Part shown: in pieces, positions 20,687-53,867 of the stretch
How the letters are laid out: each line of letters opens with the position of its first letter
Numbering within the stretch: position 1 is the stretch's first letter
Origin: Moniliella sp. 'wahieum'
Lineage: Eukaryota
Assembly: GCA_003971905.1 (NCBI GenBank)
Contig: RSEE01000020.1
Coordinates: 372,001-436,000 of the forward strand
Length of the DNA: 64,000 nt
Direction: 5' to 3'
Program-made: the position numbers and the translations under genes
The notes under the pieces: model-generated
Databases searched by the model: none
Seen by the model: only the letters and a program-made list of their open reading frames with translations
Told to the model about the DNA's origin: nothing

Positions 20687-21176
20687 CTAGAAGACCACCG
20701 GGCCTACGGCCCGGTCAGCTGGGCTTCGCCCCAGCTTGATGCTTGGTGCACATCGCCATCTTAGCCACCGGTCCGCCTTCGCCACGTAGCCACCGGTCCA
20801 CCGTTCCACGCTGGAGGGTGCTTGGTCGCCACCTTAGCCACCGTTCCCCCGTCGCCACCGTAGCCACCGGTCCACCGTTCCACGCTGGAAAGCGGAATAG
20901 TATTCACCACTACGCCTCGGGCGGAATTTTATCACCCATGCGCATCCGCCTGGCTGCGCCCGCCTGGAACGCGCCGGGTGAAACGTGCCAGGTGGCATGC
21001 TTGTGTAATTTTACGTAAAGTAAAAAGGGGGTCTGCGTTATGAATTTGTAGATGCGCATCCGCCTGGCTGCGCCCGCCTGGAACGCGCCGGGTGAAACGT
21101 GCCAGGTGGCATGCTTGTGTAATTTTACGTAAAGTAAAAAGGGGGTCTGCGTTATGAATTTGTAGATGTAGATAGA
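20687..21176 (-). mobile_element. Non-autonomous Helitron (~490 bp)
   Basis: Minus strand: A|TCTATCTACATCTAC 5' end at 21176; GC-rich hairpin ACCGGGCC-GTA-GGCCCGGT 6 nt before a terminal CTAG|T at 20687; no TSD; 3' ~130 bp shared with 47135-47253. Confidence 0.75.
20938..21165. repeat. Exact 114-bp tandem duplication inside the Helitron
   Basis: 20938-21051 is identical to 21052-21165 (ATGCGCATCCGCCTGG...TATGAATTTGTAG). Confidence 0.95.
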
Positions 21177-23447: not shown

Positions 23448-28942
<5,495 letters not shown>

Positions 28943-33791: not shown

Positions 33792-35135
33792 GGCGGAAGT
33801 AGGGGGGTAAGGAGAGGGAGGGAGTGGTGGTGACAAAGAGGACAAGGCAAGCAGGACGCACCAGGCGAAGGCGAAGGCTGGAAGAAGCGTCTTATATCGT
33901 TTTTGAGCCCGTGCCCCGTCAAAAACCAGCGTCACGCATCACGCATCACGGGCCACAGCCACCGCGTCACCGGTCACCGGCACCCCTCCTACGCCGTATC
34001 ACGCATTTGACGTCATGCATCATGCATCCTGGACATCATGCCTCGTACCAGGCAGCCACCCGTCTGTCTGTTCGGTGATCGATGAGAAATTGTGAATCAT
34101 GCACTGGCGCCATGCGGCGTCTGGCCGAATGCATCATACATGTGTCATGCATCATGCATGGGCGTCATCGGTGATCGTGGGTCACCGGTCGCTGTTGGTT
34201 TGGGCGGCCGAGCATGGGGCACAGCGCCAGTCTTGCATCGCCACTGCCCGGCTCCGCCGTCTAACCTAGGGAGTGTGCACCAGTGCGGTGCGTCGGCGGA
34301 GGCCGGAAGCAGAGTGTATTATCTTGGACGGATTAATAACAAGGAACAGGTAACCAGTAACGTAACTAGGCCGGGCCTCTCCTTTCGTTTTGCCTCTCCC
34401 CCGCCTCTTGGCGCACATTTTCCCTCCCGCTTTAGCTTTTCAGGCGGGCCCGTTTTGCCCCCGGCTTTCAGGATCCCACAGCCCACCACCGTCAGGCTCG
34501 TCGTAACAAATAGCTCCTGCGACGCCCAGACCCTCAGACTTCACACGGAGAAAGAAAAGAAAGCAAACAGGAGAAAGGGGCTACCTGCCGTTTGGATGAA
34601 AGCGACGGAAATGTATAGAGGGGCTGACAACATATCTTGAGAACGTCCGGGATCAACCTACCTTTCTGGAGCCGCCGGGCCGGATCAGGGCGTCGATGGC
34701 GGGTGGCACGTGGGGATAGAGGGAGGTACAACCGGGTAGCTGGGACGCTGATATCAGAGAGTGCTTTGTGGTACAGGCACGGGGAAACCGACAGTAGACC
34801 AACCCGTTGTGGCGCTTCTCTATATGCTCGAGCCCCCGCGGTATATCGCCTTTGGCGGTCACTGGTCAGCTCACCGGTGATCATCTGACCAGACCGAGAG
34901 GCCCGCGGCGACAAAAGGGTTACAAATGCTGGCCCAAGCACGCTACTCTTTCCTTGGCACCTTAGCGCTTGCTATGCATCGCAGCTGCTTCGCTCTGCGC
35001 CCACACACAGCCAAAAGATCACACTAACCAATGGTGGCATGGCTGCCGCGGACCGATGTTGGGGGTAAATATAAACCGCAGCCGGTACTGATAATGCATG
35101 ATCATCGATCACGCATCGCCCATCACTCATCAACA

Positions 35136-35177
<42 letters not shown>
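35136..35177. repeat. (CATCGT)n microsatellite
   Basis: catcgt repeated about six times. Confidence 0.85.
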
Positions 35178-37829
35178 ATCATCGGAGATCGGTCCCGGGC
35201 GGGACCCATGCGTGAAACACAATCGCAGCCGCCTAGCCAGCCTGGCCGTGCCAAAGGGCGGCCTGGTGTAACCAAAGGAGGCCCGCCTCTGCAAGCTAAC
35301 AATACGGCCCTTCTTTTGCTGGATCATATTGTTCTGTGGGTGATGATTACAATGATTGATCTTTCCAGGGCCAGGCGGGAGGCACATTTCGAAAGACAGC
35401 TAGCTGTATTACTATACTTTTCGCGGCTATGGCGTTCCCTCACGCGGCGACCTATCATTTGGTTTACCTTTCGCTGCGCGTCCATTGCGCGTTCTCATCG
35501 ATCGCTCAGACCTCACCCTGGCTTACCGGCCCTACCAGGCCCTGTACTCCGCCCGTCATTCCAGCACTCTTTCGGTCGGGTGTACCTTTGTGGCGCACGC
35601 ATGCGCGACTGGCTCCTCAACCGGGCAGTACCAAACAGCGACAAGGGCTTGAGGGCTTGGAGAGCAGGGGGGGTGCGTGTGGTTCAGCCTGGACGTTGAA
35701 CGTTGCGCGTTGACGACGAAGGTCGATGCCGATGGCGGCGCGAGCATCTTTAACAAACCGCATGCGCTTCTCGCGTTTGAACCTTTCGGATCTGACAACA
35801 TCAAACTCTGATCCTGTCCTGGAGCCAGCACAGGGGCAGTGTCACCCGTGTCACCAAGTGGCTTGCAGGAATACACAAACCCCAAGAAATCACACCTGAC
35901 ATATTCTTAAATACAACTCGTACGCATTACAAATCTCTTTTGCGTTTCCTCAGACATACCTCGTACGCGTAATGTTAACGAAAAAAGCAAATGCAATTGA
36001 AGCGCCATTAAGCGCATTAAGCAGAAGAAGAGAGGGGTGGTAAATGAGGTAAACATAGGCCCGACTGCAGTGTGTCTGTCATTTGCACGTCACGCGCGTC
36101 ACGCGTCACTAGCCATTAATCATAACTCGTTTTCATGCGATATGCTTACGCGCTGTGCTCTACCTAACGTCTGTGACATATATATCCGGATCCTGATGCC
36201 ATTAACAAAAGGAGATTAATAACGGTTGGGCACGGGGTGCGCGTCACCGAATGACCGGTAGCCATCGGGAGAGGACGAGAACGGAGATGGAACCCAAACC
36301 AAATCGACAGAGGCGAATCTCAATGCACATACCAATAATACCTTCTCTTTTAGATCTTAAAGTTCTTTTGAATCTTATCGATGTAAGTGCGTTACTATAT
36401 GTTCGCCAGTGGCTATCTTTTGTGCATTCCTGTATCTCCAACCCCCGGCCCCCACACCAGCCGGGTGCCGACCTGTTCCGACCCCAGGTTAGCCGGAGCC
36501 GGCACACCCGTCACTGAGTGCTGAATATTACTGAATCTGATAACCTCGTATAGTAATTCAGTTCCGACGGGTGAGCTCGACAAGGGAAGGTGAAAAAGAG
36601 CCGGTGAGCCCGTGAGTCGGTGACACAAGGGCCACCCACTTCTTGCCACTGAAGTGCGGGGAAGGCTCGCTCGCTGACACTGGCGCCCTCCCGCGGCCAC
36701 TGCAGAGCAGGGCAGAGCTAAGAGAGGGACGATCGATGAGCTGATCTTTTGGCAGGCGCCGCGACACTATATCTATAGAACGGGTGGCACGTGCGCGTGA
36801 GAAAGGCCAACTGTCGAAAAACCTTATATGCGAGGCTACGTACCACGCACCACCGCATCCACAGTATCGATCTCCGGACATCGTAACCGCTACCGGCTCC
36901 CGGCTCCCGGCGCTGTTACTGTTACCCCCTGCTGCCCCTCGATCAATTGCGGCGAGTGTGTGGGGCTCCGCATTCTTTGCAGCACACGTCTATCTCGGCA
37001 GTTGCAATGATAACGCGGTGGCCACACCTCTGCTCACGGATATCTGTAACCTGGTGCGTGACCGCTGCGGGACCGCTGCGTGACTTCGGTATTCAGTTGC
37101 GGCAGGGAAACAGATGAATAAGCGGCTGCTATACATAGCCTGCAGACAAGTGTATGGTATGGACGTGGGCCCATCCAATATTCACCGAACGCTCTAAATC
37201 CATCTTCTTTCTCTATCTCGCTTGTAGACACAGACACTCGCCCGGCATTCAGCTGGCCGTTCAGCCGGAGACCCGGCCCGAAATGGCACACCCTCCCCTC
37301 CCCTGTCCGTACGTCAGTCCATCCACCGCGCTGCCACCGTACATGGATCCATTCATATCGCTTCGTACATAGCTAATCGAAAACGCTGGTTACAAGGTTC
37401 CGGATAGATATGTGAGGACTACGTACAAAATTCAAGGTGGGCAAGGCCCACAAGATTGTGCACAAGAAATTTCGATTAGCTATATTATAGACAATCGAGG
37501 CACCCCAAAGGAGAGGCTATACCTCTCGCTGCTGCATCGCTGTGTGTCAAAGCCATTTTGTTGCGATGTAGCCTCATGTGACGGGCACTGGCCTCTCAAT
37601 CAGATAGGCATTTCCCACCGTGCTCTGTCACTATAGAAAGTAATAGTAAATGTCACCATATCGTCGATTGTCCTATCGCAACTGTGGTTCCCACTGCCTC
37701 GGACGGAAGAGAGGGTAAAGTGCAAGGATGGAATCTCTCCCTCATCGGCCTCATCCGCCTTTGGGTCCCGGGGGCAAGGGGGATTTCTCTTGCGTGGCCA
37801 GGGGGGGAGGGGGGGACAGACATAATAGT

Positions 37830-38400
37830 GTGGCTCTAGTGGACCCAAGTACTTGCGCCGCCGCCCAACCACGCAGTCGCCCAACAAAGCCAACGGGATT
37901 GATGGTGTTCCACACCGATTTGGGGGTTGGCACGGCGAAAGGCCCCCGCGGCCATTTTCGCTTCGTATACTACTTCTTCCGTAGAATCATAGTGGATCAG
38001 GTTGGTTTGGAGCCCGCTCCACAGCGACATTTTCACGTAGCGGGAGTGGCATGGTACGAACGCGTCCGGTCAGGGAAAGCAATCGCGGGCGAACTGGATG
38101 CCACCACACGACCCGACGTACCATGGCATCATTTTGCTGGAATTTGGTAGATCCTAGTTGGCACAGGCAACCGAGGACGTCATCACACATCCCACCCGGT
38201 CCCAAATGTCAAGTTGGACGCGACGTGCGCGACGTCTTGCATTCCTTGTGCACTGTTGATATGTATGCGACCTCACCTGCCGTGCCCGGTACCACTACCT
38301 GCCATGTCCATCAGGCAGTTCAATCCGACATGGTGGAAGCCTTGGCGCACACAACGCACATCGGCTTTGACTGCCGCGTGCACACAGCCGCACGCACCAG
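37830..38400 (+). pseudogene. Possible degenerate transposase C-terminal fragment
   Basis: FVYYFFRR....HFHVAGVAWYERV resembles the YFF..H..A.V.WY pattern of fungal CACTA-type transposase C-termini; interrupted by stops; lies in a gene-free, lower-GC region. Confidence 0.3.
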
Positions 38401-40518
38401 GCAACCGCTTGGAACATCACTTCGTCGATCACAAGCACGATCCGCTGTCCGTCTGTCCATCTGTCCTTCCAAATTGAGAAATCGGCAGTGCTCCTCCCAG
38501 CTCAGAGTTGAGCGTTCAACGGACAGGCAGCACACTGGACGCTGCGCCTCTGGCATCACAGGGCTACACTCCGAGATGAGAGATCAGAGATAAAGAAGAG
38601 TTGACATGCGCCGACCAACGGGAGCGCGCGCGTACAGCTTTACGTCCGTGCTTCTATCGCCAGAACCTCAGTAGGAGGCCTGGCGGAGGGAAGCCAGGAG
38701 GCCGCGGAAGCAGCGTAGCACCGACCAAACAACCCCTCACTTATAACCCATTCACCCCTTATACGGGACCCGGGACCCCCCAAAACTTTCGACCTCCTGC
38801 CTCATGCCCGTGCCACCTTACCATCATCGACAACTCCACCGTCCCCGCACTCTCCCACAAGGGCGGCCCGTTGCGTAAATATGCATCCCAGAACGAAGAC
38901 GGTTGAGGCGGGATGGCCTGCTCTGGCATCCCTGCGGCACTGGAGCGTGCCTTTTGGTTGCGAGCAGGCGGGGCGGGGGCACACCCTCTTCCCTCCCTTG
39001 GGTCCTTAGCTGTTACGTTCGTCTGTGGGACGACAGGGACCATTTTTCCTGCGAAGGCGCCTTCCCGCTTCCCCTGAACATTCCCCGTGGGCACCTTTTT
39101 TCGTTGACGATTTACGTGGACGTTTACGCTTCCTGTAGATGCTTCATGCCGCCGACATGGTCCGTGGCCACTGACGAGCAAACGCGGGTGAGCGCCTGGA
39201 GTGGGCTGCAAAGTACCGCGTGGGCGATTCGCAAGAGACTACGGGCAGGAGACAGACAGTTACGGGAGAGACGTGGGCCGAACGAACGAGGTTGGGATTG
39301 TTGGGTAAGGTATAATGGAGAGTCGTATGGAGCCGGCGGAAAATATGTGGATGAGGGAGGAGGAGGTTTTGCTCACTGTGCCTAATAGGCATGCGCTTGG
39401 GAGACGCATTGTCTCCGGTGCTGCTCAGGACAGACCAACTGAGGCGAGACCAGACGGGATGCGAGTTGCCACGGCCGCTAAAGAATGTGGCTTTTTGTGA
39501 TCTGTGGGTGGACATTGGTCTGTTGTGTAGGATGTGCAGCCCACGAAGGAACTATATGGGTGAACCGTTTATTGGTATGAAGAACGGATTTGAGAGAAGG
39601 CTTGTTGGTAGGCTCATGTAGTTCATATGCTTGTGCTCTCTCCATAGATTACATTTGCATTTTGTGGGTAGGTGTCGTTTGACGGGCAGGGCCGTGTTCG
39701 ACAATAGCGTCCTTGAGTAGGTATGGGTATACACCCTTCTTCTTCTCATGCATGGAGATGAGTTTGGCATTGAGGCCGGGGAGGAGAGTGAATCGTAACG
39801 GCAACATGGAAGAAGTTCCTTCGGCAGCCATATAAGGTTTCGTTCTAAGGGGATTCGCAAGGTTTCGTAGGTCCGTCACGGACAGTGCATACTAAAAACT
39901 GATAATACAGTCCCCAAAAATGAAGGCATCGGGCAGGCATGCACACTTCCAGCGGGTCTTCCCAGGACGCCAGACCAAAAACTACCTCTTTAATTCCAGT
40001 TTCTCCTCCACTTCCGCGCTCTGGCTCTGCCATATACCCCTTGTCGCTCTCACCATCTAGTCACATAGATGTCGTAACTCAATTCCTTCCTTCTGTCCAA
40101 TTGTCCCGCCGACACCCATCACGGAGATGCTTTCTACGTACATTATTATAAGTTGTGATGAGACGAGTGGCCCTCTGCTTCGCGCGACGTTAGGCAGAAC
40201 AATTCCATTCACCTTCATGAGATACAAGAGAATTCAAGTGGGTGGTGATGCAGGATATGCGCACCAACAGGATGCTATTGGCGTACAGAATAAGGCCAGA
40301 GGGCATCCAGGCCGAACAGGGCAATAAAAAATGGACACGTCGCAGGTTCATGATGACGAGAATGTGAGAGGGCACAACAGTGAGAGTGATGGGAACGATG
40401 AGGAAAAGAAGGTCCGAACAGGGGGGAGAAAGGGGCCTGTAAGTGGGCAGGGAAGGGCAATGAATAGGACAGAACAAAGGGCAACAAAACCAATTTTTGA
40501 CAACCCCATCCATCATGT

Positions 40519-41621
40519 CTAAACCATGGGGGAAGGGGGCGTAGAAGGAGAGGACGAGACCAAGTCCGTTTTGGAAGGCGCTTGGTCTGCTCGGTCCCAA
40601 GGGAAGGCATGCGGCGGCGCGGTAAATGGATTGGGGTGGACCCATCCTGAAGACGAAGCCATCGGGGTCGGCATATCTCCCAATGTCTCCACGGTCTCGT
40701 GCTCCTCCTCCTCGTCATCAAACGGTGACTCGGAAGTAATGGGGGCGTGGTGGGTGGGCCGCGGAAGTAAGTCGGTATGCATTTGCAATTCGGCAACGTT
40801 GATCGAGTGGCTGCGCTCCTTCTTGGCAACGGGTGAATGCTTCTGTTCCTCAGCCTCTTCGGCAGGCTTGGTACCGAGACCCTTGACTGGCTCCTTGCGC
40901 AGCCGCTTAAACATCTTTTTCACCCCCTTTTGCATCACCTCCCCCAAGTCCACCACATCGTCCCTTGGATAAAGTGGAACAGGCCCAGCGGCAGAGGCTT
41001 GGTCACCGGACCAGGCTGCTGCCTGCTGCTGCTGCTGTAGCTGCTCGGTCCCTGCTTGCGAAGCCAGCAATTGGGCTCGAGACGTCACACCAATCGAGAT
41101 AGACTGGGAACGAGTCGTCCGACGGCCGGTACTGGGCAAGGGGCAGAAGCGAAGAGAGGAGGAAGTGGATCTCCGTTCACGTTCGCCTTGCTCGGACGAA
41201 CTGGTCTGGGTGGGATGGAAGGGCGACGATGCAGCGGTGGAGTGGGTAGAGTGGGTGGAGGTGGTTTGGACCGACGCTCGGGTGGACACGTCGCTCTGCT
41301 CCGATACGGCCGAGCCGCGATGCGTTTCAGTCGGGGACACTGGGGTGGGGATCCAGCCATCTCCAAACGAGGCATTGGGGCCGCGTGGGTCGACGGAGAG
41401 CACCTCGGGACCACGGATGGTGAGTGGGCCGGGGGTGTTATCCGGGCGGCGGCGGTAGGACTTGCCGAGGGGGGTGTTTGTTTTCTTGGCGAGCGATCCA
41501 GGCGCTTGGGGACGAGGAAGGCGTCTTTGAAGCGGTTGGGCTTGCGCGTCTCGCTCGGTGGGGCGCCGCAGCAAGCGGGGTCAAGGATGCTCTTGAGCGC
41601 GGGCTGGGAAACGGTGGACAT
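40519..41621 (-). CDS. Hypothetical Ser/Pro-rich protein
   Basis: ATG at 41621 (MSTVSQPALKSIL) joined by a frameshift to a 351-aa ORF with LRFCPLP..RSQSISIGVTSRAQLL; coding-like composition. Confidence 0.6.
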
Positions 41622-43588
41622 GGTGGGGGCGAGAGGTGGAGGGGCAGGGGAAAGAGGGAGGGGGAGGGGGGATGAGGAAAGGATGAAGGAGAGAAGGTAT
41701 GGAGGTAGTGGTGGTGGTCGGCCTGCTGAGTGCACCGCACTGAGTGTATTGTGTCGATGGGGTTCGCGAGTCTGGCCACGCTCCCCAACCTGGGACCCAC
41801 AGCAAGGGGCGGCAGGGGCGGCAGGGGGCGAGTGTGGCCGCACGCGCAGCGGGCTTAACAGCCCCGCGCAGCTTAAGCCCGCAGCCCCACGCATTTTTTT
41901 TCGGGAGCAGCGCACACTTGCCTGCGGCACTGCGCCCAGCCAGCGCTGCCCTGCGCTGCCGCCGCCGCATGACATCACCGCACAGCCGCTTACATACGCA
42001 ACGCTCCACGTCACACACGTCACACCCCCGCCGCCATCGGCGCATTGTTTGTGCTAGCATGCTTATGTGTACAGATAACCCCACCAGGTGCATCAGGTCC
42101 AGGGCACAGTGTCGGTCGCCTGGGGAAATCCTTGCTCATTCCACACTATACTCGCTACATCACTCAATCGTCAGGCTGTGAGGCCTGGCCGCTCCCAGCC
42201 CCCCACGCGTTACATTCCCCCAATCCCCCAACGCCGCTTACGGGGAAGAATGGGTGCCGCGAGCTTGCTGGGGACCACATGGGCCACCCACGATGCATCT
42301 CCAGCAGACCTCTTCTCTTTGCCTGTTGGGGTGTTATAGGTGGCTTGTATAAGCATCTTTATGCGGTGGTGTGGGTAGGCAGAGGAGGTGCTATCCATGG
42401 CCCTTTTCGGGTGCCCCCAATCCTTCCTCTTGTGGTCTCCCCCTTGATTGATGATCGATCATCTTCACACTCCGGATATTTTGCCTCATGTGGTGCCTGT
42501 GGGTATCAACATCCTGTTGTTGCAAACAACCCGATCGAGGGGGGTTAAGGTAATCGTTGGCCTCGGTGGCCGCCGCTCAAACGTTGGGGGCGCAATCAAC
42601 GAATGAGAGGAAAGTGTGTGGAGCCGCATCATATTCTAGCCGGAGAAGTATACGCAGATGACTAGACGTTTTCAAGGGGACCTGCGAGCCACCCTATTTC
42701 CCCGACCGGAGCTTGGCAGAGGGGAAGGCGACAGTGTGCGCTGCGCCCTGCTCGGGGTTCTCTTCAAGCTAATACAGCAGGGTAATACGTCGGAAGGAGG
42801 CTGCATATGGTCGCACACCCCGGAAGGTGGTACCCGAGGGTTAGGAACCGCCAAAAGCTTGTGGAACGCCGGGAGAAAAAATGAGGCGCTTCGACCGCTG
42901 CAGAAGGCGGACTGCGACAAGAAAGCAAAGTGTCAGGGACGCGCTCCAGCGCCATTCCCCCCCTGTGTGCTTGACGATGCGTGGGTACTAAATGCCACCA
43001 AGACGGCCAACAAATGATGTTTGAGTACTGGAAACACCTTGAGGAGAGGAGTCACATTGGAGATAATGGCGCATCGCTCATATGTCTATACCACATAGGC
43101 TTCATCGTAGTATCTAGTCGCGCTATACATCCGGTTTGGAAGCAAATGGCGTGCGCCAGAGGGTCCCGGCCTGCTGGCGATTCCACTGATATCTTAATTG
43201 GATTGGCATGAGCACTGAAGCAGTGCAGGCCGGGTGAACGAGCATGCCAGTCGATAGAGAATCGGCGTTTCTATGTCATGATCCCAATACAACAACAGTG
43301 AGGGAGGGGGTGGGGGCGCTTTCTTTTTTGTACAGTACACCCCGGTCTTGCAGCGCCCTGGAGGCTTTGGGGATAATATCCTACGTATCCTCAGTCAGCA
43401 TCTCGGCTCTCGGTTTCTCGTCCAAAAGTGGTGTTGTAGTCCAATACGTCTCCCAGCTACCAATGCCGATACTATGACCCAGAAAATCTCGGTGTGCAAC
43501 CTCACGGGGGGTGTGAAAAATTAAAATTTCGCTTAGATGACCACATCACCCAAAAATGAGTAAATTTTTCCGAATATTACCTTCGGCA

Positions 43589-43820
43589 CTTTGGCCACAT
43601 GAGGTCAAGCGCTTTGGCCCAAGAGGTCAAGCGCTTTGGCCACATGAGATCAAGCGCTTTGGCCACATGCGTTCAAGCGCTTTGGCCACATGCGTTCAAG
43701 CGCTTTGGCCACATGAGATCAAGCGCTTTGGCCACATGCGCTCAATGGCTTTGGCCACATGCGCTCAATGGCTTTGGCCACATGCGCTCAAGCGCTTTGG
43801 CCACATGCGCTCAAACGCTT
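43589..43820. repeat. Subterminal tandem array, 10 x 23 bp (consensus CTTTGGCCACATGCGCTCAAGCG)
   Basis: Ten head-to-tail copies with a few variable positions, ~60 bp inside the left TIR. Confidence 0.95.
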
Positions 43821-44076
43821 AGCTGTTGATTGGATGCGTGCTTGTAGGCTTTCTAACCGGCTGGTTGGATGGGGCTGGCATCGATCCAGAACTACTAGAT
43901 TTATAGGCAGGGTAGGTATTTCTTAGGTATAGAATGCATTCGAAGATCGCTGGGAAGCGATGACACGGCAACCACGGTTAGGTGTGACGTCAGACGGAAG
44001 CACCACAACATAGTAGAGCAGTGAGCGGTACAGAAAGTGGCAGGTTAGTATGAGGGGAGCGCGCACTAGGGAGACG

Positions 44077-44768
44077 CTGGCCAAGTCAGCAGCAGCATGG
44101 GGTTAGCGAGAGACACAGAAAATGTGCGACGGACTCACAGGTCAGGCGATCAAGAGGGCCAGTAGCGAGGTCAAGCGGGATGAAGGCGGAATGTACACTG
44201 GTAGGGCGAACAAGGTTAGGAACAGCGTTGGCATATAACAGAGAAGGGACGTACGACGGCGAAAAAGGTCAGATGAGTCGAGGCGAACAAGACGAGACGA
44301 ACCAACCGTGGGATTCCGTGCATGCAGAGCAGCTGGGTAGATAGTGTCAGTGGCAGGACAACTCCAAGCGCGAAGTACGGGGGACATACGATGGCAAGGC
44401 AGGCCAGCCAAGCGAGAGGACCTCAGGCGAGGCAAAATGGAACCAGACGGACAAGGCCGAAGGTGAGCGAAACGGTGCATGCACATCACGCATGCTACCC
44501 ACAAGGTCAGCAGAAGTGTGGGGAATGCGAAGGAAGCGGGCACGTACGATGGCGCTGCGGATCAGGTGAAACGAGGGCAAGATGGCCACCGAGGGGGTGT
44601 CTGTGTAGGCGGGGTCAGCAACAGAGCGCTGGTGGGCAAGAGAACACATACGACAAAAGCAATGCAGACAGTGAGAGGGGGCCGGGGCGAGAGGCAGAGG
44701 GGGCGTTCACCAGCGATACTGACGAGGCGAGGGGACGGAGTGTGGCGGGAGAGGGAATGGAGACGTAC
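44077..44768 (-). other. Array of six canonical short introns without a continuous ORF (spliced non-coding or pseudogenic unit)
   Basis: Donors GTACGT/GTATGT/GTGAGT at 44768, 44651, 44547, 44389, 44254, 44138; YAG acceptors at 44719, 44601, 44495, 44333, 44198, 44077; CTRAC branch site in five of six. Confidence 0.7.
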
Positions 44769-45752
44769 GGCAGCAATGCAGACCAGGCGCGGAGAACCGA
44801 GCGATGGGGACGGGACTAGCAAGGCGGGCAGTAAGCAGTGCAGGCAACAACGATGGTGATGTTAGTGGTCAGGGGAAGAAGATGGTGCTGTTGCGCCGTG
44901 GCACAGCAGAGCACTCTGAGATGTGTTGGCTGCAGAGATGGGATACTGGTTGCTGCGGGCGCAATGAGAGGGGCGGTGGTGAGGAGACAGGATGCAACCA
45001 CAGAGGAGCAGGAGGTTAAAAGGAGGCGCGTGTGGCGCAGCCACATTCTGTGCGCACAGACCAATCTGGACCACGCCAGGGGCCTAGGTAAGCTATTATA
45101 TCTGTCTATTAACGCCACAACACTAGCGGCCCCCTGCAGCAGTGTTCAAGGGTCTAATCATCAATCAAGCTTCAAGAGCGCTCTCTTGAGTTTGCCGATT
45201 TGAGACTTGCTGTAGTACTAGTTGTCTCTGTTGCGACGGTGACTGGTTACTGGCTTCGCCGAACGCGACGCACTTGCAGCTTCTCTAGCCCCGAGGCTCC
45301 GCGGGCTCCGAAGACTGCTGATGCGCGCGTACCCGCGTAAGCCAACGACGAATAGCCTTGTCCAGTATAGCCCTCTCGTCCTTTCCTACCACCAACGCCT
45401 ATCTCTCGCCCGCAATCGATCGTTTACGCTACTGTCCCAAACGCTTCAGCATTCATTGCGGTCTCCATAGCCGGGTGAATCGCTATACAGGTCACGATTA
45501 TCCTCACTTGATCCATACTAGTGGCCTACGGTGTTACATCAAGCTTCAAGTGAATGGGCACCACATGACTTCTTATGTTCACGCACGATGCACCAAAGTC
45601 CTTGCGCAGGCCGAATGAATGGTCAGTGCTATATCACTGGGAGGAGCTCCTCTAAGTCTTCGGAACTGCGTTCAGGTCCGGGAGCAGCATCGAGCAATGC
45701 GGATACACGTCCGCCGGGCCGCCTGCAACGTTTAGCTGACTCTGCAGCGTGT

Positions 45753-47062
45753 TCACATATGTGGTGGCATCTGGTGGTGTGTTCGAAGACAAGTTGTTAA
45801 ACTCTTTTTCCACCTCGTCCACTGGGCCTGGGCTGTTCGCTCAGTAGTGTCGCTGCCGTTCTGCGTGAAAACCTGAAGGCGCGCCATGGCAATATGGACA
45901 AGGGCAAATTTTTTCACAGCGCACGCTGGAAACCGCTTGAGATGAGCCGGGAGCGTGTTGCGCATGTTGCCCAACTTCCCCCAGGTCTCACGAATGTAGC
46001 CGTCCAGGTTGAACACCGTCCTGTCGGCCTGCGTTGGATGAGGGCCTTGATGGCGGTACTGGAAATGGGTTAGGAGGGGTTAGCTGCAATCCTGGACACA
46101 TAATGAGAGATTATGCGCACTCGATGCAGTAAATCATGCCGCAGAGTATTCCAATGAGGAGTCAGGACCTTCTTGAGCTCATGGAGAAAGTTGTCCATAC
46201 GTCCTCTCCAAGCGAGGTCAAGAGGTATGCACAGGAGTTGCCGCTCGCGCGGTTGCCGTAGCAAGTGGGACACGCGCGACCACAGGTGGGCATTGCTAGT
46301 AATGGACGCATTCGGGGCGCACCACACGATGATCGCAAGGGCAGCAACCCACGTCTGCAGGCATTGAAGTTAGTCCTATAATAACCAATGAAGAATATGA
46401 GGCGAGCATACCTTGTTTGCATCCAAGAACGACCGGTAACCCTGGGGGCTCGCATTGGCAGACGCCATCAAGTTCTGATAATGAGTCTCCATTCTAGTCT
46501 CGATGCGTTCCATACGATCGTTCATGTGGTTGACAGCCCCTACGAGCATACGCAACGTCGTCACAATCTGGTCGGTATTAGACCCTTCCTGTAAATCTCC
46601 CTCGTTGAAGAGGGAAGGGACGGCTGGAAATGATCCTTCCCGTTGGGCCCTGGGCATCGTATCATCGCCGTTGTCGAGCAAAGTGTCGATAGTTGGAAAC
46701 ATCTCGCCGAAAGTGCTCATCGCGCTGTTCCCATCGTTTTCGGTATCAGGAGCCGGAGTTTCCCCCTCCGTTACGGCCTCCTGGGTCATATCATCATCCA
46801 CGTCGATGTTTCCTGTGGTGGTCATGTCCAAGGCATTGTTTGCATCCTCGCCATGGTACTGGGCTTGGGTTAGAATAACATTATTCTCAGAGGGAGCTGT
46901 CCCTTGCTGCGACAGTGTTGTCGGCCGCGCCTGGCGTGTCGCCCTCGCAGCAGAAAGCGCTGATCCAGGACGGACAGAAGGTGTGCCCGCCCCTGCCAAC
47001 GAGGTGCGGCGCCGGAGAGGAATCCGACTGGGGGTTCCTCTTCTGACAATTGGAGGGGCCAT
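45753..47062 (-). CDS. Transposon second ORF (~400 aa, unknown function)
   Basis: ATG at 47062 (MAPPIVRRG); introns 46411-46355 and ~46120-46060 splice in frame (..DANK|TWVAALAIIVW..LLHR|YRHQGP..VFNLDGYIRETW); acidic disordered N-half then helical C-half; may run ~100 nt further through a frameshift. Confidence 0.7.
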
Positions 47063-47134
47063 TGTCGGTACAGTTGGTAAGCTGTATAAGCACAACGGTG
47101 TTGGTTGGGAAGGAAGTTGTAATGCGCTTATACA

Positions 47135-47253
47135 CAAGGAGGACCACCGGGCCTACGGCCCGGTCAGCTGGGGCTTCGCTCCAGCTTGATGCTGCGTCGC
47201 CACCTTAGCACCTTTTCCACTTCGCCACCGTAGCCACCGTTCCACGGTCGCCA
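47135..47253 (-). mobile_element. Helitron 3' terminus, same family as 20687-21176, nested in the CMC element
   Basis: Same ACCGGGCCTACGGCCCGGT hairpin, second AGCTGGGGCTTCGCTCCAGCT hairpin and GCCACC repeats; minus-strand end CTTG|T; 5' end not located. Confidence 0.7.
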
Positions 47254-47986
47254 ACACCGACATAGAGAAATAATATAACCGATGCTTGCTGGCTGCAGGG
47301 GGCGTGGAAGGTGGCACGGGGCAGCTGATGTTAAAAGTGCACAGGGCGAATCGAGGGATAATATAGGACCGGATGGTGAGAACCGGAGGGTCCTGATATC
47401 CTGGCGATCCCTCTGGTTCCTTAACCTTGGTGGCGCATCCAACAAGCAACCCCCGCAAGATGAACGGTTATTAGGTTTAGACGCAGGGTTCCCCCTGTCC
47501 CAGCCTTACGCTCTGTCAATGAAATAGACGCGATCTAGGGATATTGTGAGAAGAGCCGCATCAGTATGGTCTGTGTGTTTCGACCAGGGTCTATCGCGCC
47601 CCGTGCAGTTCAAGGAGCTCCGATGTTGTAACCATTAATTCAATTTAACTTTGCGTTTTCTTTTCCCAAGATGCATGATCTCCGCATCCCTAAGGTATAG
47701 CCTCTGTTGTTTTGATGCATCCTTGTATTAGGCGTGTCGTTGGCTGGTGGCGTATTCGACCACCACACGACCAACACTATAGTGCTATCGCATCACCCAT
47801 TAGGGTGGCCATCTGGACTGCACTCTCATCAGATAGGGGATCACGAATGTAATACGCCTTGGAAGAGCATCAAAAAGAAGCGGGAGAGCGTGCGTCTCTG
47901 GTCTGTATGGGACAGGGGGGGCAAGGTTTAAGGTTGGAGGGCCGCGATTGTCTGTCGGGCCGGTGGCAAGAAAAGCACCCACACCA

Positions 47987-50900
47987 TGCATCATGTACAA
48001 CCCATCGCCCATCCTTACCAAGTCGCCACCGCCATGCTTCGACCTCGGCTCAGTGGTGCCGCCCGATGGAACAAGCTCGCACACGTGCACAATGGGACAG
48101 AAGCATCTGCTACCTGTTTCCTCGGCCTGGTCCACGGTGCAGCAGAACGGGAGGTTGCTTTCCAGTGCCGTGCTTGCCAGTTCGACCGATGACCCAGTTT
48201 GATGCACTCAAGCACGCGAAGGTGCGCAAGCACATCCATAACGTGGTGCTGGGTGCGAGGATGGGGGCTAGTCACGCCCACGCCATTGACGAGGTGGCCG
48301 AAGATGCGAGCATGCCCCCCCAGCCACCTAACGCACGCTCGCCTTCCCCTGCTTCCCGTGCCTCTTCACCTGTAGACACTACCATGGCCGAGGACGAGTT
48401 AGGCCAGACGCAGCCCAGTGTTTCCTTTGAACCGCCTTCAAGAGCCCACGGGCGTGTCCTTTGCCGCCGTGGGCGCGTGCACCCGCTCGGCGCCTCGAAT
48501 GAGCGTGTCGAGCAAATCCGCAACCAAGAGACTCTCGAGCACTTGCTTTGGGCCAAGGTGATGATGTGATCGGCGACGAAGATGACTCGAATGGACTGAT
48601 GCCGAGGATGACCTCGACTGGGACAGGGAGATGATGGGCGCAGGGTCGAACGCCACGGCGCACGCAGCCGGATGCATGCGTCTTCCGCCACAGAGAACGG
48701 CAGCATCACGGCTGGCGGCCCAAGCCTCATGCTGCTGAAGCAAGGATCAAGCTTATGGAACGACTGGTGGCCAATCCCCAGCGTCATGGCCTGCCGCAGG
48801 CGTCTTTGAGTCACCAATGGTACGTCACATGTCACATTCTTGCTCTCTTGCTCGTTTGAGTGTGACTGGTGAGATTAACCTGCCAGCCGCAGATCTGGGC
48901 AGTTATGAACGTGTTCTATGGCTCGGTATTCTCCTTCTCAAGGCGCCAGGCCCGGGCAGCATTGCTCTTGATGCGGCTCGCCCGCTGCTTGCAGTGCGCC
49001 ATACCTACATGGCACAAGGTGTCGCAAGTGCGGAGGAAACTCAACGGGCCGTTCACATCTGTTCCGAAGTATGTTGACTCTTCTCTGAGCGAGACGTACT
49101 TCAGTCCATTGGATGAGATCGCACGTCTGGCGTATGGCAACACCCGCTTGCGGAGCGTGATCGAGGACTTGCCAGTGAAGCGAGCTGTGGTGCGCAACGT
49201 ATCAGATGGCCAACGTTTCTATAAGGTCATGTCACGACAGCCGACTGCTGTCAACAGCTGCGGGAGAGTATTTTGGTTGGACGAACCCGCGGCTGTGAAG
49301 AGGCAGAGACCTGACACACAACCTCCCCATCCCCAGCGGATCGTTCTTGTCCAAGGATGGCACATTGAAGCTGACTCAAACGCTCCTCGGCGTGTAATGG
49401 CCCGTGTGAGAGACATGGTTCTGGATGATGGTGCTGGAGGCGCCGCTGGCATGATACGGCAAACATATCGTGTGTCCCCTACAGCTGAACAATCGGTTGT
49501 TCCACTCGACGATCTCACGCCCTTCAAGGAACAGGCCTACCGTCGCCTGTCATTTCGCGACCAGTCTGGTGACGTTGTGGCGCAGAACTCGCTCCGCGCC
49601 ATGTCTAAGGAGCATGGTGCCGACCGCGTTATCTTTGCACCCATGATGGCTTGGTGCGACGACGCGCGCGTTTTCAGCCACAGCCGGCAGCGTGCGGGTG
49701 CAACAGTCATCTACCTGTCCTGGGCCGGTCTTCCTCAAAGCCACCTGTTCGCGGATGAGGGTACGAGTTTGTTCATGGTCAAGCTGGGAACTGATGAAGT
49801 GCGCGCGTTTGAGGCCCTTGTGCGCCAGGTCCAGTATGTCTTTGTTACTAAGCTATCTTATATATATGTCACCGCTGACTGGCATTTCTGCTCAGGATAT
49901 GGGGAAAGACAGGCATCAAGGGGGCCGACGGAATATCAGGCCGCCCGATTGTCCTCCTTGTTCATGCTGTGGTAGCGGACAACCCAGCGGGAAACCACCT
50001 TGCTGCCCGTGCCCTCAGTCCTAGCCCCCTGTGCTGCCGTATTTGCGGGGCCAATTTCCAGAACCGCGGCCATGCTGACCAAATTCTGCATGTGCTCACA
50101 GGAGGTGTGAAGCGAAGCAATAAGCAGATCCAAGCGAACCTCGAGAGGCAGGTGGATCACGCTATCCTGGGCAATAACGCTGCATACGACCGGGAACGCG
50201 CCGCGACGGGCGACAGGGACCCCAACGTCCACCGACTCTGCTGCTCCTGTGTCGCCGACATGGACATGTTCGAGAATAAGGGTGAGAAGCAGCCCATTCA
50301 CACTCGCCCGTCCCGGAAGGGATTTGCTTTGCCTAAGACAAGGGCTAGGGTCATTGAGCTGAACCAATCCGAGGCGGACGATCTGCGACGGAAGAGTTTC
50401 TTGATGTGCCCGGCGCTGTCCCTGCCGCAGTTTGATGTGGCGGACTGCTTTCCCCTCGACTTTCTTCACACCTTCCTCCTCGGAATAGGGAAGGACCTGC
50501 TAAAGTTGGTGGCGACAAGGGTGAAGCCTAAGGCGAAGGAGCAATTGGCGATATTCATCAGCGGTCTCAACACGGAGGGTATCCCTGGCGCAGAGGGCAC
50601 CAAGATCCGAGCTAAGGGTTTGATGGCTAACCTAAAGACTGGGGTTGGGAAAGATGTGCGCACTATGCTTGTGGCTCTCCCATTCGCGGCACTCCCTATC
50701 CTTGAGACCGGAAAAGAGGCCAACAATGAGAAGGAGTTCACGTTTCCGATTCCGCTTTATGATGCTATCGTCGCGGCAGCCGACCTGCATGGTTTGCTTT
50801 CCAGGACATGGTACCCGGCAGCCGGGCAGGCCAGGGCCCAGTTCATGGTACGTCCCACAGCCTTGATTGATATACGGGTTTAGACGCTGACATGCCTGTT

Positions 50901-52191
50901 ATGGCTGGAACAGTACCGGGTGACCCAGACTGCATACCGACTGATCGAACGCCTTTCGAGACTCGGCCCCGACAGCGCCATGATCGCGACGCGACCGAAG
51001 CTCCATCTCCTCCTGGCGCATACGTCTGATGCGCTCGAATTGTTCGGCCCTCTCCAGAACACGGACGCTGCCAGATTCGAGGGTCGCGTGAAGCACATCC
51101 GTGCGTCCGTTGCCCATTGCAACTTCCAGAACCTCCCGCGTGACACCTTGTACAACGTCATGGTCGCCGAGAAGATTCTGCACCACTCTTCACCGGGGTA
51201 TGATGTGTCTAGTGACGGCTCGGTGGTGGCTCGGCCTGGAGCTCCTCCCGGGGTGCTGGAGCAAGGGAAGGAAGAGCCCGACTACGACTCTGATGGCATG
51301 GCGATTCCACGAGTGGTGCTGGCCCCAGCCAAGAACCAATCCTCGGTGGGTTGCAACAACCTCACCGACGAGGAGCTGGGTCGTTTCCAGTTGGCGGACC
51401 GTGTCAAGGTGCGGGCGCAGTACCTGGTGGGCAAGGCGGCTGTTATCGCTACAGGGGAGATGATCCGTGTGGGGATGAACGTGACGATCGGCCAGAAGTC
51501 GGCCGAGTACAGCGCGTCCGCCGACTTTGTTATTGGCAAGATCCTCCGGATTGGGCGCGACCCGTTGGATGAGAAGGCTGCCTGGGTCGGGTACAGGCCG
51601 TACATCATCACGGGTAGCACGCATCGCTCAGGCTGCCGCATTGTCCGCGAACTCGATGATGGTGATGCTCCAGAAGAGTTTGCCCTATTGATGGTGAGCA
51701 CCGATGAGTGCTGAATCCGGCTGCGTGACAATTGCTCATCAAGTACTGACACTGGGACATTGTGACCACAGGATGTTGGCAGCGAGGCGCCTCTCCAGCA
51801 CGCCTGCACCAAGAAGTGCATGATAGAGCAAGACGGCGAGAAAATACTGGTGCACAACTACGAGAAGGACCCAGTCTCGGGGGAGAATGAGGCGATGGAG
51901 TACTTCATCCCGGCGGCTTCTCATTTTAAAGCCAAGAATGGGAAGCGGCTGGTATTGAACGAATACGCTATGCGAAGTCCACCACACCACAAGCCGCACA
52001 TGGACTTGAGGATCAGCTGGAAGTCCCCCGAACTGAGCGCCAACGCGCTGAGCAAAGACGTGGCCCAGAGGATTGCAACGAACGGTGCCATGCACCTGTG
52101 GGACAAGCGCGCCAAGAAGAAGACACCTGCCGTGGCCGCTGTCGGAGGAGGGGGCAACAGCGGCGACTCTTCGGACAGTGATAATGATTGA
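47987..52191 (+). CDS. CMC/EnSpm-type DDE transposase
   Basis: N-terminal CxxC..H..H finger (FQCRAC..KHAKVRKH); AWCDDARV (D), VVADNP (D), CCRIC, DFLHTFLLG, RPKLHLLLAH..LFGP..RFEG (E), QHACTKKC..H..LNEYAMRS; introns 48820-48892, ~49835-49896, 50848-50913, 51694-51771. Confidence 0.88.
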
Positions 52192-53867
52192 TGCGAGAAC
52201 CAAATGGACATATGCATCGCGCGATGAGGATGAGTATAGGTTTGGTGTCAGTAGTCAGTCGTCAGTAGCCAGGCCATAGGGTGGTGCGCATCCCGGACCC
52301 ATCAGCCGGAACCTCTCGAGACGTGAGATGGGGCGGTGGGCGGCGCTTTGACATGATGCGCATGCGCACATAAGCTTCTTTTGCCGGCGAACGAGCCAGG
52401 TGACGGGTGACTGTCATGCGTCCCATGCGCACGGGCATGGCCGAAGCGAAGGGGCGGTTATGGAGTAAGAGGCCAGACGGTGAGGCGTCGGTTGCAGCCC
52501 CAAATGGATGTCGCCACAAGCGTCGGGTCTCTGCCACGGCCTCCTCAGCCCCACTCCGCTTATCCAGCCGATCTACCCATTTTCCAATCCCGCCATGACC
52601 CATGTTTCAATTTTTCACACCCGCCCGTGCTGCCTGTGAAATCGGCCGCACTGCAATACGGAGGGGAACCGCGGCGAGGCGTTTGCAGGCGCCGCTGCCT
52701 TGCCGGCGGGAAAAGCGGGGTTTAAAAAAAACGTTATGTGAAGAATAAATCGAAAGACGATACGTGGGGCCCGCACCATGCATGCACCATGCTTAAAACG
52801 TTTTCTAATGTGTTGAAAGCAGTTTATACTTTCGCGAGACCGCCACTGGGGTGCTGGGCATGTTGGCCACATAGGTGGTGGGAAGCAAACGGGATCGAGG
52901 GACAAGTGGTGATTATGCAATGATAATGATGTTAATGATTCATAATCGGCACGCGATCGATGGCGTCGGGCGTGAGAAAAAACCAGGTGGATGCAGAAGA
53001 GGTGGCTGTGGTGGGGCAGGCGTGTGGACCATTTTTTTTTGGGCACGATTAATTGATTGAGAGGGACAGGGACTAGTGATCGATGGACAAGGCATGGAGA
53101 CGATAGGGAGAGCCAACGCGCAGCGCAGATGTGGATACACACCACGGGCGCGTGTTGCGATCGGCTCGTTCGGTATAGCGGTTGCGTGGCTCCGGGGCGG
53201 CCACAGGAGCTTTGCGCCTTAGGAAAAAAGCTCAAGCTGAGCTGAGCGCCTGGCCGCGCTCTGCCCGCCCGCCGGACTCAGCGGGTGGGTGCTGAGTGCT
53301 GGCTGAGCGTTGAGTGGGCGTGGCGTGAAAGGAAGGGGCGGTGAGAAAACAAGCGAGAGGGCCGTGGGAAGCAACACCCAAGGCAGGCGCGCCTTTGGTT
53401 GGGTGGAGTTGCTTTTGCGGGGGGGCGAGATAACGGCGGCAGGCGCACTGGGCCAGTGTGTGGGGCATGTTGGAGCCCCGTTTTTTAGGCTCCTGGGGCG
53501 GCAACGCGCCAGTGTGCCTGCCAAGGGCGGTGCGAAAGTGGCGCCGTGCAGCGGCCGAAGCAAACGTGGCACGCGTCAGCAGGGGTCCGCCTGGCCAGCG
53601 ACTGGCGCTGTGCCGCATCTGCGCCGTCTGCTGCGCCGCCCGCTGCGCCGAGGTACGCTCTGCGCCGCTTGGGCCCGCGCTCGGCCACTGGGCCAGTGTA
53701 TGCCAGCGCACGGGCCCAGCACCCCCACCAAAAAAATAAGCGGGCAGCCGATTGCTTCCTTCGCTCCTCTCTTCCCCCGCTTTATCTGTGGCCTTCTCCT
53801 TTTTCTCGCCCCCCCCTCCCCACCACCACCAACACCACCACCCGATCTGACCAGCACAGAACGGACG

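What the first reader, a model, noticed from the sequence alone, without database searches (positions are those of the whole stretch)
44077..44768. Periodic array of six spliceosomal introns with no ORF, carried inside the transposon
Seen: on the minus strand, six canonical introns of 50-62 nt recur every 104-158 nt, separated by exons of 67, 53, 105, 78 and 59 nt. Five donors follow similar exon ends (GCTGCC, TTTGTC, GCCATC, GCCATC, GCCGTC), suggesting tandem amplification of an exon-intron module. Splice signals are well preserved, yet the joined exons give no continuous ORF: one is open and hydrophobic (LLCMHGIPRLVRLVLFASTHLTFFAV), and a related one has two TGA stops. A TATAA lies upstream near 45100. 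Inference: either a transposon-encoded multi-spliced non-coding RNA, possibly regulatory (stalled spliceosomes are known to trigger siRNA against transposons in Cryptococcus), or a decayed repeat membrane-peptide gene. The ORF track does not reveal it.
Basis: partly seen in the sequence, partly recalled or inferred. Interest (0 to 1): 0.8.

Follow-up and report, generated by a model that had tools for sequence, protein, structure and literature searches.

The report
Six-intron non-coding unit in transposon
A 9-kb fungal-type DNA transposon carries, beside its end repeats, a pyrimidine-rich stretch with six textbook short introns and no convincing protein frame, most likely a multiply spliced non-coding RNA, though its expression could not be checked here.

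Summary
Six GT..AG segments of 50-62 nt lie on the minus strand exactly where stated. Five have the window's preferred donor GTAYGT, five a CTRAY branch site, and all six a YAG end. A donor+branch+acceptor pattern hits 5 times here against 0.22 per shuffle (0 of 2000 shuffles reach 5).

They lie in a 1.1-kb pyrimidine-rich domain that begins just after a TATA-like box. The domain sits inside a 9,127-bp element (43503-52629) with CAC...GTG inverted ends. That element also holds a 23-nt x10 subterminal repeat and two intact spliced genes. One gene is about 1,026 aa and Plavaka/EnSpm-like by language-model features only. The other is an orphan of about 396 aa.

One frame does stay open through all six joints (152 codons). 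This is expected for the composition (1487 of 2000 shuffles reach it), it has no ATG before exon 4, and no frame has a coding signature. The modules are weakly alike (z 2.65), which suggests an old tandem amplification in which little but the splice signals survived.

Best reading: a multiply spliced, probably non-coding transcription unit of the transposon. No RNA data, whole genome or second copy could be obtained, so transcription, splicing and function remain inferred.

The parts
43503..43526 (.). Left terminal inverted repeat of the element; begins CAC
   Evidence: (pair I7). A 14-nt core occurs exactly twice in the window, in inverted orientation (0 of 100 shuffles give 2 matches). It is the only inverted pair with at least 19 of 21 matches in 33.5-53.5 kb, against a mean of 0.05 in 20 shuffles.
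43589..43820 (.). Subterminal tandem repeat, 23 nt x 10.1 copies, found at the left end only
   Evidence: 9 matches, all here, none elsewhere or inverted.
43951..45085 (-). Pyrimidine-rich domain (about 69% C+T on the minus strand); putative primary transcript
   Evidence: Composition. Stop-codon density drops sharply from about 45086 downward.
45093..45100 (-). TATA-like box (TATAATAG) just upstream of the pyrimidine-rich domain
   Evidence: Read directly. Its function is not tested.
44816..45046 (-). First ATG-initiated ORF of the putative transcript (76 codons plus TAG), ending 48 nt before the first donor
   Evidence: No Pfam family, no homologue, ambiguous codon score of -0.02.
44719..44768 (-). 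Intron 1, 50 nt, GTACGT...CAG, no CTRAY branch site
44601..44651 (-). Intron 2, 51 nt, GTATGT...CTGAC...CAG
44495..44547 (-). Intron 3, 53 nt, GTACGT...CTGAC...TAG
44333..44389 (-). Intron 4, 57 nt, GTATGT...CTGAC...CAG
44198..44254 (-). Intron 5, 57 nt, GTACGT...CTAAC...CAG
44077..44138 (-). Intron 6, 62 nt, GTGAGT...CTAAC/CTGAC...CAG. The module alignment places a mutated copy of the older donor motif 11 nt further downstream.
43951..44066 (-). Possible seventh, weaker intron (GTGCGC...CTAAC...CAG, 116 nt), or a decayed seventh module
   Evidence: Read. It would leave a 10-nt exon, so it is doubtful.
45753..47062 (-). Gene A: orphan ORF of about 396 codons in three exons (introns 46411-46355 and 46120-46059, both phase 0), upstream of the array on the same strand
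   Evidence: No Pfam or NCBIfam family; Atlas gives nothing.
48905..52191 (+). Gene B: ORF of about 1,026 codons in four exons (introns 49834-49895, 50848-50913, 51694-51771); putative transposase
   Evidence: Atlas features are nearest Plavaka (PF18759) clusters: score 0.96, 21 of 30 hits. No HMM hit and no sequence homologue.
52605..52629 (.). Right terminal inverted repeat (reverse complement begins CAC)

Best explanation
The six segments are genuine U2-type spliceosomal introns. They belong to a separate transcription unit of about 1.15 kb on the minus strand of a 9.1-kb cut-and-paste DNA transposon with CAC...GTG ends (EnSpm/Plavaka-like). The unit is pyrimidine-rich and is preceded by a TATA-like box. 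It lies between the element's accessory gene A and the 23-nt subterminal repeat array at the left end. It probably arose by tandem amplification of one exon-intron module. Since then the splice signals and the last few exon bases have been kept while the rest has drifted. It shows no coding signature, so its product is most likely a multiply spliced non-coding RNA of about 0.6-0.8 kb, possibly carrying a short upstream ORF. The selected property would be the act of splicing (loading of spliceosomes and junction complexes), serving control of the element's own expression or silencing. Shown here: the signals, their statistics, the transposon frame and the lack of coding evidence. Inferred: transcription, splicing, selection and function.
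For: All six segments were found at the stated places. Five of six donors are GTAYGT, the form used by 9 of 12 hand-picked introns in this window that join long open frames. Five of six have CTRAY 9-18 nt before a YAG. The combined pattern gives 5 hits against 0.22 expected, and 0 of 2000 shuffles reach 5. YCGTAYGT occurs 8 times on the window's minus strand, 5 of them here. The domain starts right after a TATA-like box, and its composition changes abruptly at both ends. A spacer of about 650 nt with ordinary composition separates it from gene A's stop. Both genes of the element read through 2 and 3 predicted introns without a stop over about 396 and 1,026 codons. This copy is therefore little decayed, and the state of the array is that of a working element. 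The modules resemble each other weakly: the summed local exon scores give z 2.65, with 0 of 300 shuffles as high. The shared exon ends (RTC before the donor) are not a splice preference of the 12 reference introns, which points to common descent. Against coding: the 152-codon open frame is matched or beaten in 1487 of 2000 shuffles and in 1061 of 2000 random excisions. Codon scores are -0.10 to -0.18 in all three frames with no frame standing out, and exons and introns have the same base composition.
Against: There is no RNA evidence of any kind, because no RNA run was listed. There is no second copy and no relative of the element, so conservation of the splice signals is argued only from the seven internal modules, and their alignment is anchored on those same signals. 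The search pattern was defined after the fact. Intron 1 lacks a branch consensus. Three of the six introns (50-53 nt) are shorter than the shortest of the 12 reference introns (57 nt). The codon model is small, and held-out long host ORFs score only about 0, so it separates coding from non-coding poorly. A stop-free frame does cross all six joints. It could be joined in frame to gene A through a donor-like site at 45924, or to a short upstream ORF through one at 47156. No function can be read from the sequence.
Confidence: 0.5

Rival explanations
1. Relic without present function. The array would be a captured or element-derived gene piece that was amplified in tandem, as subterminal regions of CACTA-type elements often are. 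It would be drifting, with splice signals still visible but no longer used or selected.
For: No coding frame, no homologues and no family. It lies next to another tandem array. A seventh module and an upstream module have lost their donors, and module 6 has a mutated copy of the older donor motif. Intron 1 lacks a branch site.
Against: The modules are so diverged (mean column identity 47%) that neutral drift should have removed most donor, branch and acceptor signals, yet 5 of 6 keep all three. The copy is otherwise intact, so a useless 1.1 kb has been carried by a working element.
Confidence: 0.2
2. Coding exons used by alternative splicing, following the En/Spm logic in which tnpA is assembled from many small exons near the element's end. 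A donor in or before gene A would splice to the acceptor before 44815, and the stop-free frame would supply about 135 C-terminal codons of a basic, low-complexity accessory protein.
For: One frame is open through all six joints and lacks its own ATG. The donor-like site at 45924 lies in gene A's frame and joins in frame, as does the one at 47156 after a short upstream ATG. The position beside subterminal repeats matches where tnpA exons lie in En/Spm (passages of PMC2613891).
Against: The open frame is no longer than chance, and frame compatibility has a 1-in-3 prior per donor. The required introns of 1.1 or 2.3 kb far exceed anything seen in this window (57-93 nt). No frame has a coding signature. 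Similar module parts fall in different frames, since exon lengths are 67, 53, 105, 78 and 59. Gene B lies on the opposite strand, unlike En/Spm.
Confidence: 0.12
3. The array is the intron-laden 3' untranslated region of gene A. Six exon junctions downstream of the stop codon would mark the mRNA for nonsense-mediated decay, a brake on the accessory protein.
For: It is on the same strand as gene A and directly downstream of it. No strong terminator could be identified in the spacer.
Against: About 985 nt separate the stop (45753) from the first donor. A TATA-like box and an abrupt composition change at about 45085-45100 suggest a separate start. A spacer of ordinary composition lies between them.
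Confidence: 0.1
4. The array is not RNA-level at all. A 15-nt direct-repeat motif (consensus about GCCRTCGTAYGTCCC) would be a DNA site for an element-encoded protein, like the subterminal motifs of CACTA elements, and the intron-like look would be incidental.
For: The conserved block extends into exon bases that splicing does not need. The copies are direct repeats near one end, and asymmetric subterminal repeats are described for CACTA elements (passages of PMC2613891).
Against: This does not explain a CTRAY plus YAG at the correct distance after 5 of 6 copies. The motif is absent from the rest of the element and from the other end. It lies 570-1270 nt from the end, behind the 23-nt array.
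Confidence: 0.05

Closest known systems
Multi-exon tnpA region of En/Spm and other CACTA transposons (passages of PMC2613891 read)
   Same: A run of small exons and introns lies near one end of a CAC-ended cut-and-paste element, next to subterminal repeats. It is poorly conserved between families. The element has a large transposase gene plus a second product.
   Different: tnpA encodes a 67-kDa DNA-binding protein and shares strand and promoter with the transposase. Here no coding frame is supported, the putative transposase is on the opposite strand, and a separate accessory gene A already exists.
Intron-bearing non-coding transcripts (miscRNAs) of Cryptococcus (passages of the review PMC5851062)
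   Same: [quoted passage not shown]
   Different: Those are host loci defined by RNA-seq. This one is on a transposon, is unusually intron-dense for an otherwise intron-poor window, and has not been shown to be transcribed.
Spliceosome-coupled RNAi (SCANR) substrates of Cryptococcus: transposon transcripts with poorly spliced introns (Dumesic et al. 2013, seen only as cited in PMC5851062)
   Same: A transposon-borne, intron-containing transcript in a fungus with short introns.
   Different: Those substrates are marked by inefficient splicing. Here 5 of 6 introns carry the local consensus. The organism's RNAi status and small RNAs are unknown.
Introner-like elements of fungi (recalled from memory; no paper read here)
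   Same: Short introns that multiply, here by tandem copying of a module.
   Different: Introner-like elements are near-identical copies spread through many genes and fold stably. These introns share little beyond the signals (z 2.25), do not fold, and have no look-alike elsewhere in the window.

Membership tests
U2-type GT-AG spliceosomal introns of this genome | 5' splice site matching the local consensus | tested here: met
   Five of six are GTAYGT and one is GTGAGT. Nine of 12 hand-picked ORF-joining introns of the window are GTAYGT.
U2-type GT-AG spliceosomal introns of this genome | Branch site CTRAY shortly before a YAG 3' end | tested here: met
   Five of six have CTRAY 9-18 nt before the end, and all six end in YAG. 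Intron 1 has no CTRAY.
U2-type GT-AG spliceosomal introns of this genome | Length within the local range | tested here: inconclusive
   The array introns are 50-62 nt; the 12 reference introns are 57-93 nt (mean 73). Three of the six are shorter than any reference intron.
U2-type GT-AG spliceosomal introns of this genome | Actually removed from RNA | not testable with these tools
   No RNA run was listed and no whole genome is held.
CMCT-clade DNA transposon (EnSpm/CACTA, Plavaka) | Terminal inverted repeats with CA(C)...(G)TG ends | tested here: met
   The arms are 43503-43526 and 52605-52629. It is the only pair with at least 19 of 21 matches in 20 kb, against a mean of 0.05 in 20 shuffles. 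The family criteria come from passages of PMC12730594.
CMCT-clade DNA transposon (EnSpm/CACTA, Plavaka) | Target-site duplication of 2-5 bp | tested here: inconclusive
   Both flanks show CT next to the ends. A 2-bp match has a 1-in-16 chance, and a 3-bp duplication is not present.
CMCT-clade DNA transposon (EnSpm/CACTA, Plavaka) | Transposase recognisably homologous to the family (Pfam PF18759 Plavaka or PF02992) | tested here: not met
   No Pfam hit for any gene B exon even at E up to 5. HMMER against 1.84 billion proteins gave 3 weak repeat-like hits. Only Atlas language-model features point to Plavaka (0.96, 189 of 256 features, 21 of 30 hits), which is a lead and not a test.
CMCT-clade DNA transposon (EnSpm/CACTA, Plavaka) | [quoted passage not shown] | tested here: inconclusive
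   A C-x2-C followed by H-x5-H is readable in exon 2. That stretch has a weak C2H2-finger match (E 0.048). The spacing differs from the published motif, and the catalytic residues were not assigned.
CMCT-clade DNA transposon (EnSpm/CACTA, Plavaka) | Several copies or evidence of mobility | not testable with these tools
   No genome is held. There is no relative in the metagenome, genome or viral collections and no second end in the window.
Protein-coding gene (including a tnpA-type accessory gene) | ATG-initiated frame through the exons, longer than chance | tested here: not met
   The open frame is 152 codons with no ATG before exon 4. Shuffles reach or exceed it 1487 of 2000 times.
Protein-coding gene (including a tnpA-type accessory gene) | Coding signature or homologues | tested here: not met
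   Codon scores are -0.10 to -0.18 in all frames, but the model is weak. No Pfam family for six ORFs on both strands. No homologue of the 76-aa ORF.
SCANR-type RNAi substrate | Suboptimal, poorly spliced introns and matching siRNAs | tested here: not met
   Five of six introns have consensus signals. siRNAs and the RNAi machinery could not be examined with these tools.
Introner-like elements, mirtrons or snoRNA host genes | Near-identical intron copies, stable intron hairpins, or snoRNAs inside the introns | tested here: not met
   Intron interiors give z 2.25 only. Fold z-scores run from -1.10 to +0.62. Rfam gives nothing at the gathering score or at E up to 5 beyond three chance-level rows.

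The most novel reading that the evidence does not exclude
The transposon maintains a dedicated 'intron cassette'. This would be a transcription unit whose only conserved features are splice signals, multiplied by tandem copying. Its job would be to engage the splicing machinery on the element's behalf, either by making the element look gene-like so that it escapes splicing-coupled or intron-sensing silencing, or by tuning its own dosage through splicing-coupled decay. That would be a mobile element using splicing itself, rather than any product, as its regulatory device.
Probability: 0.15. Interest if true: 0.8.

Novelty: new variant of a known kind. Interest (0 to 1): 0.5.

Why it matters
Transposons with multi-exon accessory regions are known, and so are fungal non-coding RNAs with introns. 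A transposon-borne unit in which six consensus introns are nearly the only thing preserved would be different. It would offer a compact natural test of what splicing itself does for or against a mobile element, through RNAi triggering, decay or licensing of expression. The test is simple: delete 0.7 kb. The array also shows introns being multiplied by tandem copying of an exon-intron module in an otherwise intron-poor stretch of genome. Without RNA data it remains a well-supported sequence observation with an inferred function.

Tried and rejected
RNA evidence: no RNA holder was listed for 43850-45300.

Whole genome: none is held.

Relatives of the element:
- Gene A exon 1 and gene B exon 2 against metagenome contigs gave none.
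- Gene B exon 2 against prokaryote genome contigs and viral contigs gave none.
- Word-indexed protein searches of gene B exon 2, both 'longer' and 'near', gave none.
- HMMER of gene B exon 1 against 1.84 billion representatives gave 3 weak hits, two of them with 8 and 21 matched stretches, taken as repeat-like.

Protein families and folds:
- Pfam and NCBIfam on all gene A and gene B exons and on six ORFs over the array gave nothing usable.
- The single-sequence AlphaFold model of gene B exon 2 had pLDDT 34.5 and was not searched further.
- Atlas on gene A exon 1 gave a best score of 0.75, which is meaningless.

RNA families and structure:
- Rfam gave 0 at the gathering score over the window, and 3 chance-level rows at E up to 5 over 43400-45400.
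- The mirtron or hairpin idea is rejected, because the six introns fold no better than shuffles.
- snoRNA hosting is rejected, because the introns are too short and Rfam finds nothing.

Other checks:
- A module profile (nhmmer) finds only the seven modules it was built from.
- BLAST of the array and of the spliced product against the rest of the window shows no similarity or antisense target (E 0.16 or worse).
- TRF does not see the modules as a tandem repeat.
- The bacterial-type promoter and terminator scan gave 0 hits and is not relevant to a eukaryote.
- Earlier findings of this scan gave nothing for this genome or sequence. Two notes on Naegleria transposases do not bear on this.
- Literature searches for Plavaka, for stalled spliceosomes and for CACTA tnpA turned up no description of a transposon-borne array of introns without an ORF. 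That covers only these three searches.

Full report
**What is there.**
On the minus strand, a scan for fungal-type introns returns six segments at exactly the stated coordinates: 44768-44719, 44651-44601, 44547-44495, 44389-44333, 44254-44198 and 44138-44077. They are 50, 51, 53, 57, 57 and 62 nt long. The exons between them are 67, 53, 105, 78 and 59 nt. Three donors are GTACGT, two are GTATGT and one is GTGAGT. Five introns have a CTGAC or CTAAC 9-18 nt before the 3' end; intron 1 has none. All six end in CAG or TAG.

**Is it more than chance?**
- A combined donor + branch + acceptor pattern hits 5 times in 44000-45000, against a mean of 0.22 in 2000 dinucleotide shuffles of that kilobase. 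The maximum was 4, so no shuffle reached 5.
- Donor hexamers alone number 6 against a mean of 1.7.
- I wrote the pattern after seeing the introns, so these figures flatter the result.
- Even so, the window as a whole is intron-poor. The pattern hits 49 times on both strands together, and the two other bins with 4-5 hits are alternative donors sharing one acceptor.
- From the rows I hand-picked 12 introns whose removal joins open frames of at least 59 codons on both sides. Other rows were left out, for example 18384-18445, which joins 156 and 78 codons. Nine of the 12 use GTAYGT, and they measure 57-93 nt with a mean of 73.
- The array therefore uses the local consensus, but its introns sit at or below the short end of the local length range.

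**Setting.**
The array lies in a domain of about 1.1 kb (about 45085 to 43951) that is 69% pyrimidine on the minus strand. Exons and introns are alike in this respect. Stop codons become rare from 45086 downward. The domain starts just after the TATA-like box. Its last possible acceptor is followed by a stretch that looks A+T-richer on reading (not measured), and then by a 23-nt x10 tandem repeat at 43589-43820.

An inverted repeat bounds a 9,127-bp unit, with arms at 43503-43526 and 52605-52629, both beginning CAC.
- Its 14-nt core occurs exactly twice in the window, in inverted orientation.
- It is the only inverted pair with at least 19 of 21 matches in 33.5-53.5 kb, against a mean of 0.05 in 20 shuffles.
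- Both flanks show CT next to the ends, which is at best a 2-bp target duplication.

Inside the unit are two genes.
- Gene B (plus strand, 48905-52191) has about 1,026 codons, and its frame stays open across three predicted introns.
- Gene A (minus strand, 47062-45753) has about 396 codons, and its frame stays open across two predicted introns.
- Neither has a Pfam or NCBIfam family. No sequence relative of the gene A and gene B exons that were searched turned up in the protein, metagenome, prokaryote or viral collections.
- Language-model features of gene B exon 2 are nearest Plavaka transposase clusters of Basidiomycota (0.96; 21 of 30 hits).
- A C-x2-C...H-x5-H stretch in gene B gives a weak zinc-finger match.

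Passages of PMC12730594 give CA..TG termini and 2-5 bp duplications for the EnSpm-Plavaka-Transib group, and CAC..GTG for EnSpm. The transposon setting is therefore supported by structure. Family membership is only a lead, because the HMM test failed.

**Coding or not.**
In fact one frame stays open through all six joints for 152 codons. This carries no weight as evidence for coding.
- Shuffles of the spliced domain reach or beat 152 codons in 1487 of 2000 trials. Removing six random segments of the same lengths does so in 1061 of 2000 trials.
- The frame has no ATG before exon 4.
- A codon-usage score trained on six coding pieces of the window is negative in all three frames (-0.10 to -0.18), and no frame stands out.
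- That model is weak. Held-out exons of genes A and B score +0.17 and +0.40, but five long host ORFs score only about 0.
- The first ATG of the putative transcript opens a 76-codon ORF ending 48 nt before the first donor. It has no family, no homologue and an ambiguous score.
- ORFs on the opposite strand also have no family.

**Module structure.**
Aligning seven exon-plus-intron modules gives 47% mean column identity. The shared block runs from the last exon bases through the donor, with a second block at the branch site.
- In module 6 a mutated copy of the older donor motif lies 11 nt downstream of the GTGAGT now available.
- Module 7 and an upstream stretch look like copies that have lost their donors.
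- Summed local scores among the six exons exceed all 300 shuffles (z 2.65). Intron interiors give z 2.25, with 7 of 300 shuffles as high.
- The shared exon ends (RTC before the donor) are not seen at the 12 reference introns. They are better read as common descent than as a splicing requirement.
- Exon lengths are not multiples of three, so the similar parts fall in different frames. This argues against amplification of a coding repeat.

**Inference.**
The element copy is essentially intact, so the array is in the state carried by a working element. Modules this diverged should have lost most of their signals if nothing preserved them. I therefore take the introns to be real and the splice signals to be under selection.

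I take the unit to be a separate, TATA-driven, multiply spliced and probably non-coding RNA (confidence 0.5). About 650 nt of ordinary composition separate it from gene A's stop. What the RNA does is not readable from the sequence:
- It has no Rfam match.
- Its introns do not fold.
- The spliced product has no look-alike or antisense target in the window.

My mechanistic guess is that splicing itself is the selected activity and acts on the element's own expression or silencing.

**Rivals.**
- An unused relic (0.2).
- Coding exons reached by long-range alternative splicing, as for tnpA of En/Spm (0.12). A donor-like site at 45924 in gene A's frame and one at 47156 both join in frame to the acceptor before 44815. 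However, each has a 1-in-3 prior and would need introns of 1.1 or 2.3 kb.
- A 3' untranslated region of gene A that invites nonsense-mediated decay (0.1).
- A DNA-level protein-binding repeat (0.05). The motif is absent from the other end and from the rest of the element.

**Comparison with what is known.**
By position, the closest known thing is the multi-exon tnpA region of CACTA elements (passages of PMC2613891). By kind, it is the intron-bearing non-coding transcripts of Cryptococcus (passages of PMC5851062). These introns look well formed, so that link has no support here.

**Limits.**
No RNA run was listed, no genome is held and no second copy was found. Transcription, splicing, conservation across copies and function are therefore all untested. 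Spliced proteins could not be searched as wholes, only exon by exon.

Noticed in passing
window 43589-43820: A 23-nt unit is repeated 10 times in tandem, 63 nt inside the left inverted end. It has no copy at the right end or elsewhere in the window. It is probably the element's subterminal repeat. Each unit contains short palindromic cores.
   Followed up: partly
window 48905-52191 (+) and 45753-47062 (-): Two intact spliced genes of the element have no sequence relatives in any collection searched. The putative transposase is recognisable only by language-model features (Plavaka-like). This would be a very divergent or unsampled lineage of the EnSpm/Plavaka group.
   Followed up: partly
window 47209-47248 and 20740-20878: A 40-nt motif just upstream of gene A is 85% identical to one of four clustered copies about 26 kb away, outside the element. 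Next to those copies lies a perfect 114-nt tandem duplication (20938-21165).
   Followed up: no
window 45924 and 47156 (minus strand): Two donor-like sites would join in frame to the acceptor before 44815 and extend into the array's stop-free frame. One lies in gene A's reading frame and one follows a short upstream ATG.
   Followed up: partly
window 26600-28100: Long runs of 6/12/18-nt GCTCAA/GCCCAA-type repeats lie inside overlapping long ORFs of the plus strand, probably a low-complexity coding region.
   Followed up: no
window 34000-53000: A block of about 19 kb has lower G+C (0.51-0.59, apart from one kilobase at 0.66) than the rest of the window. None of the ORFs of 200 or more codons tested there has a Pfam family. 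The transposon occupies the right half, and the left half (34-43.5 kb) is unexplained.
   Followed up: no
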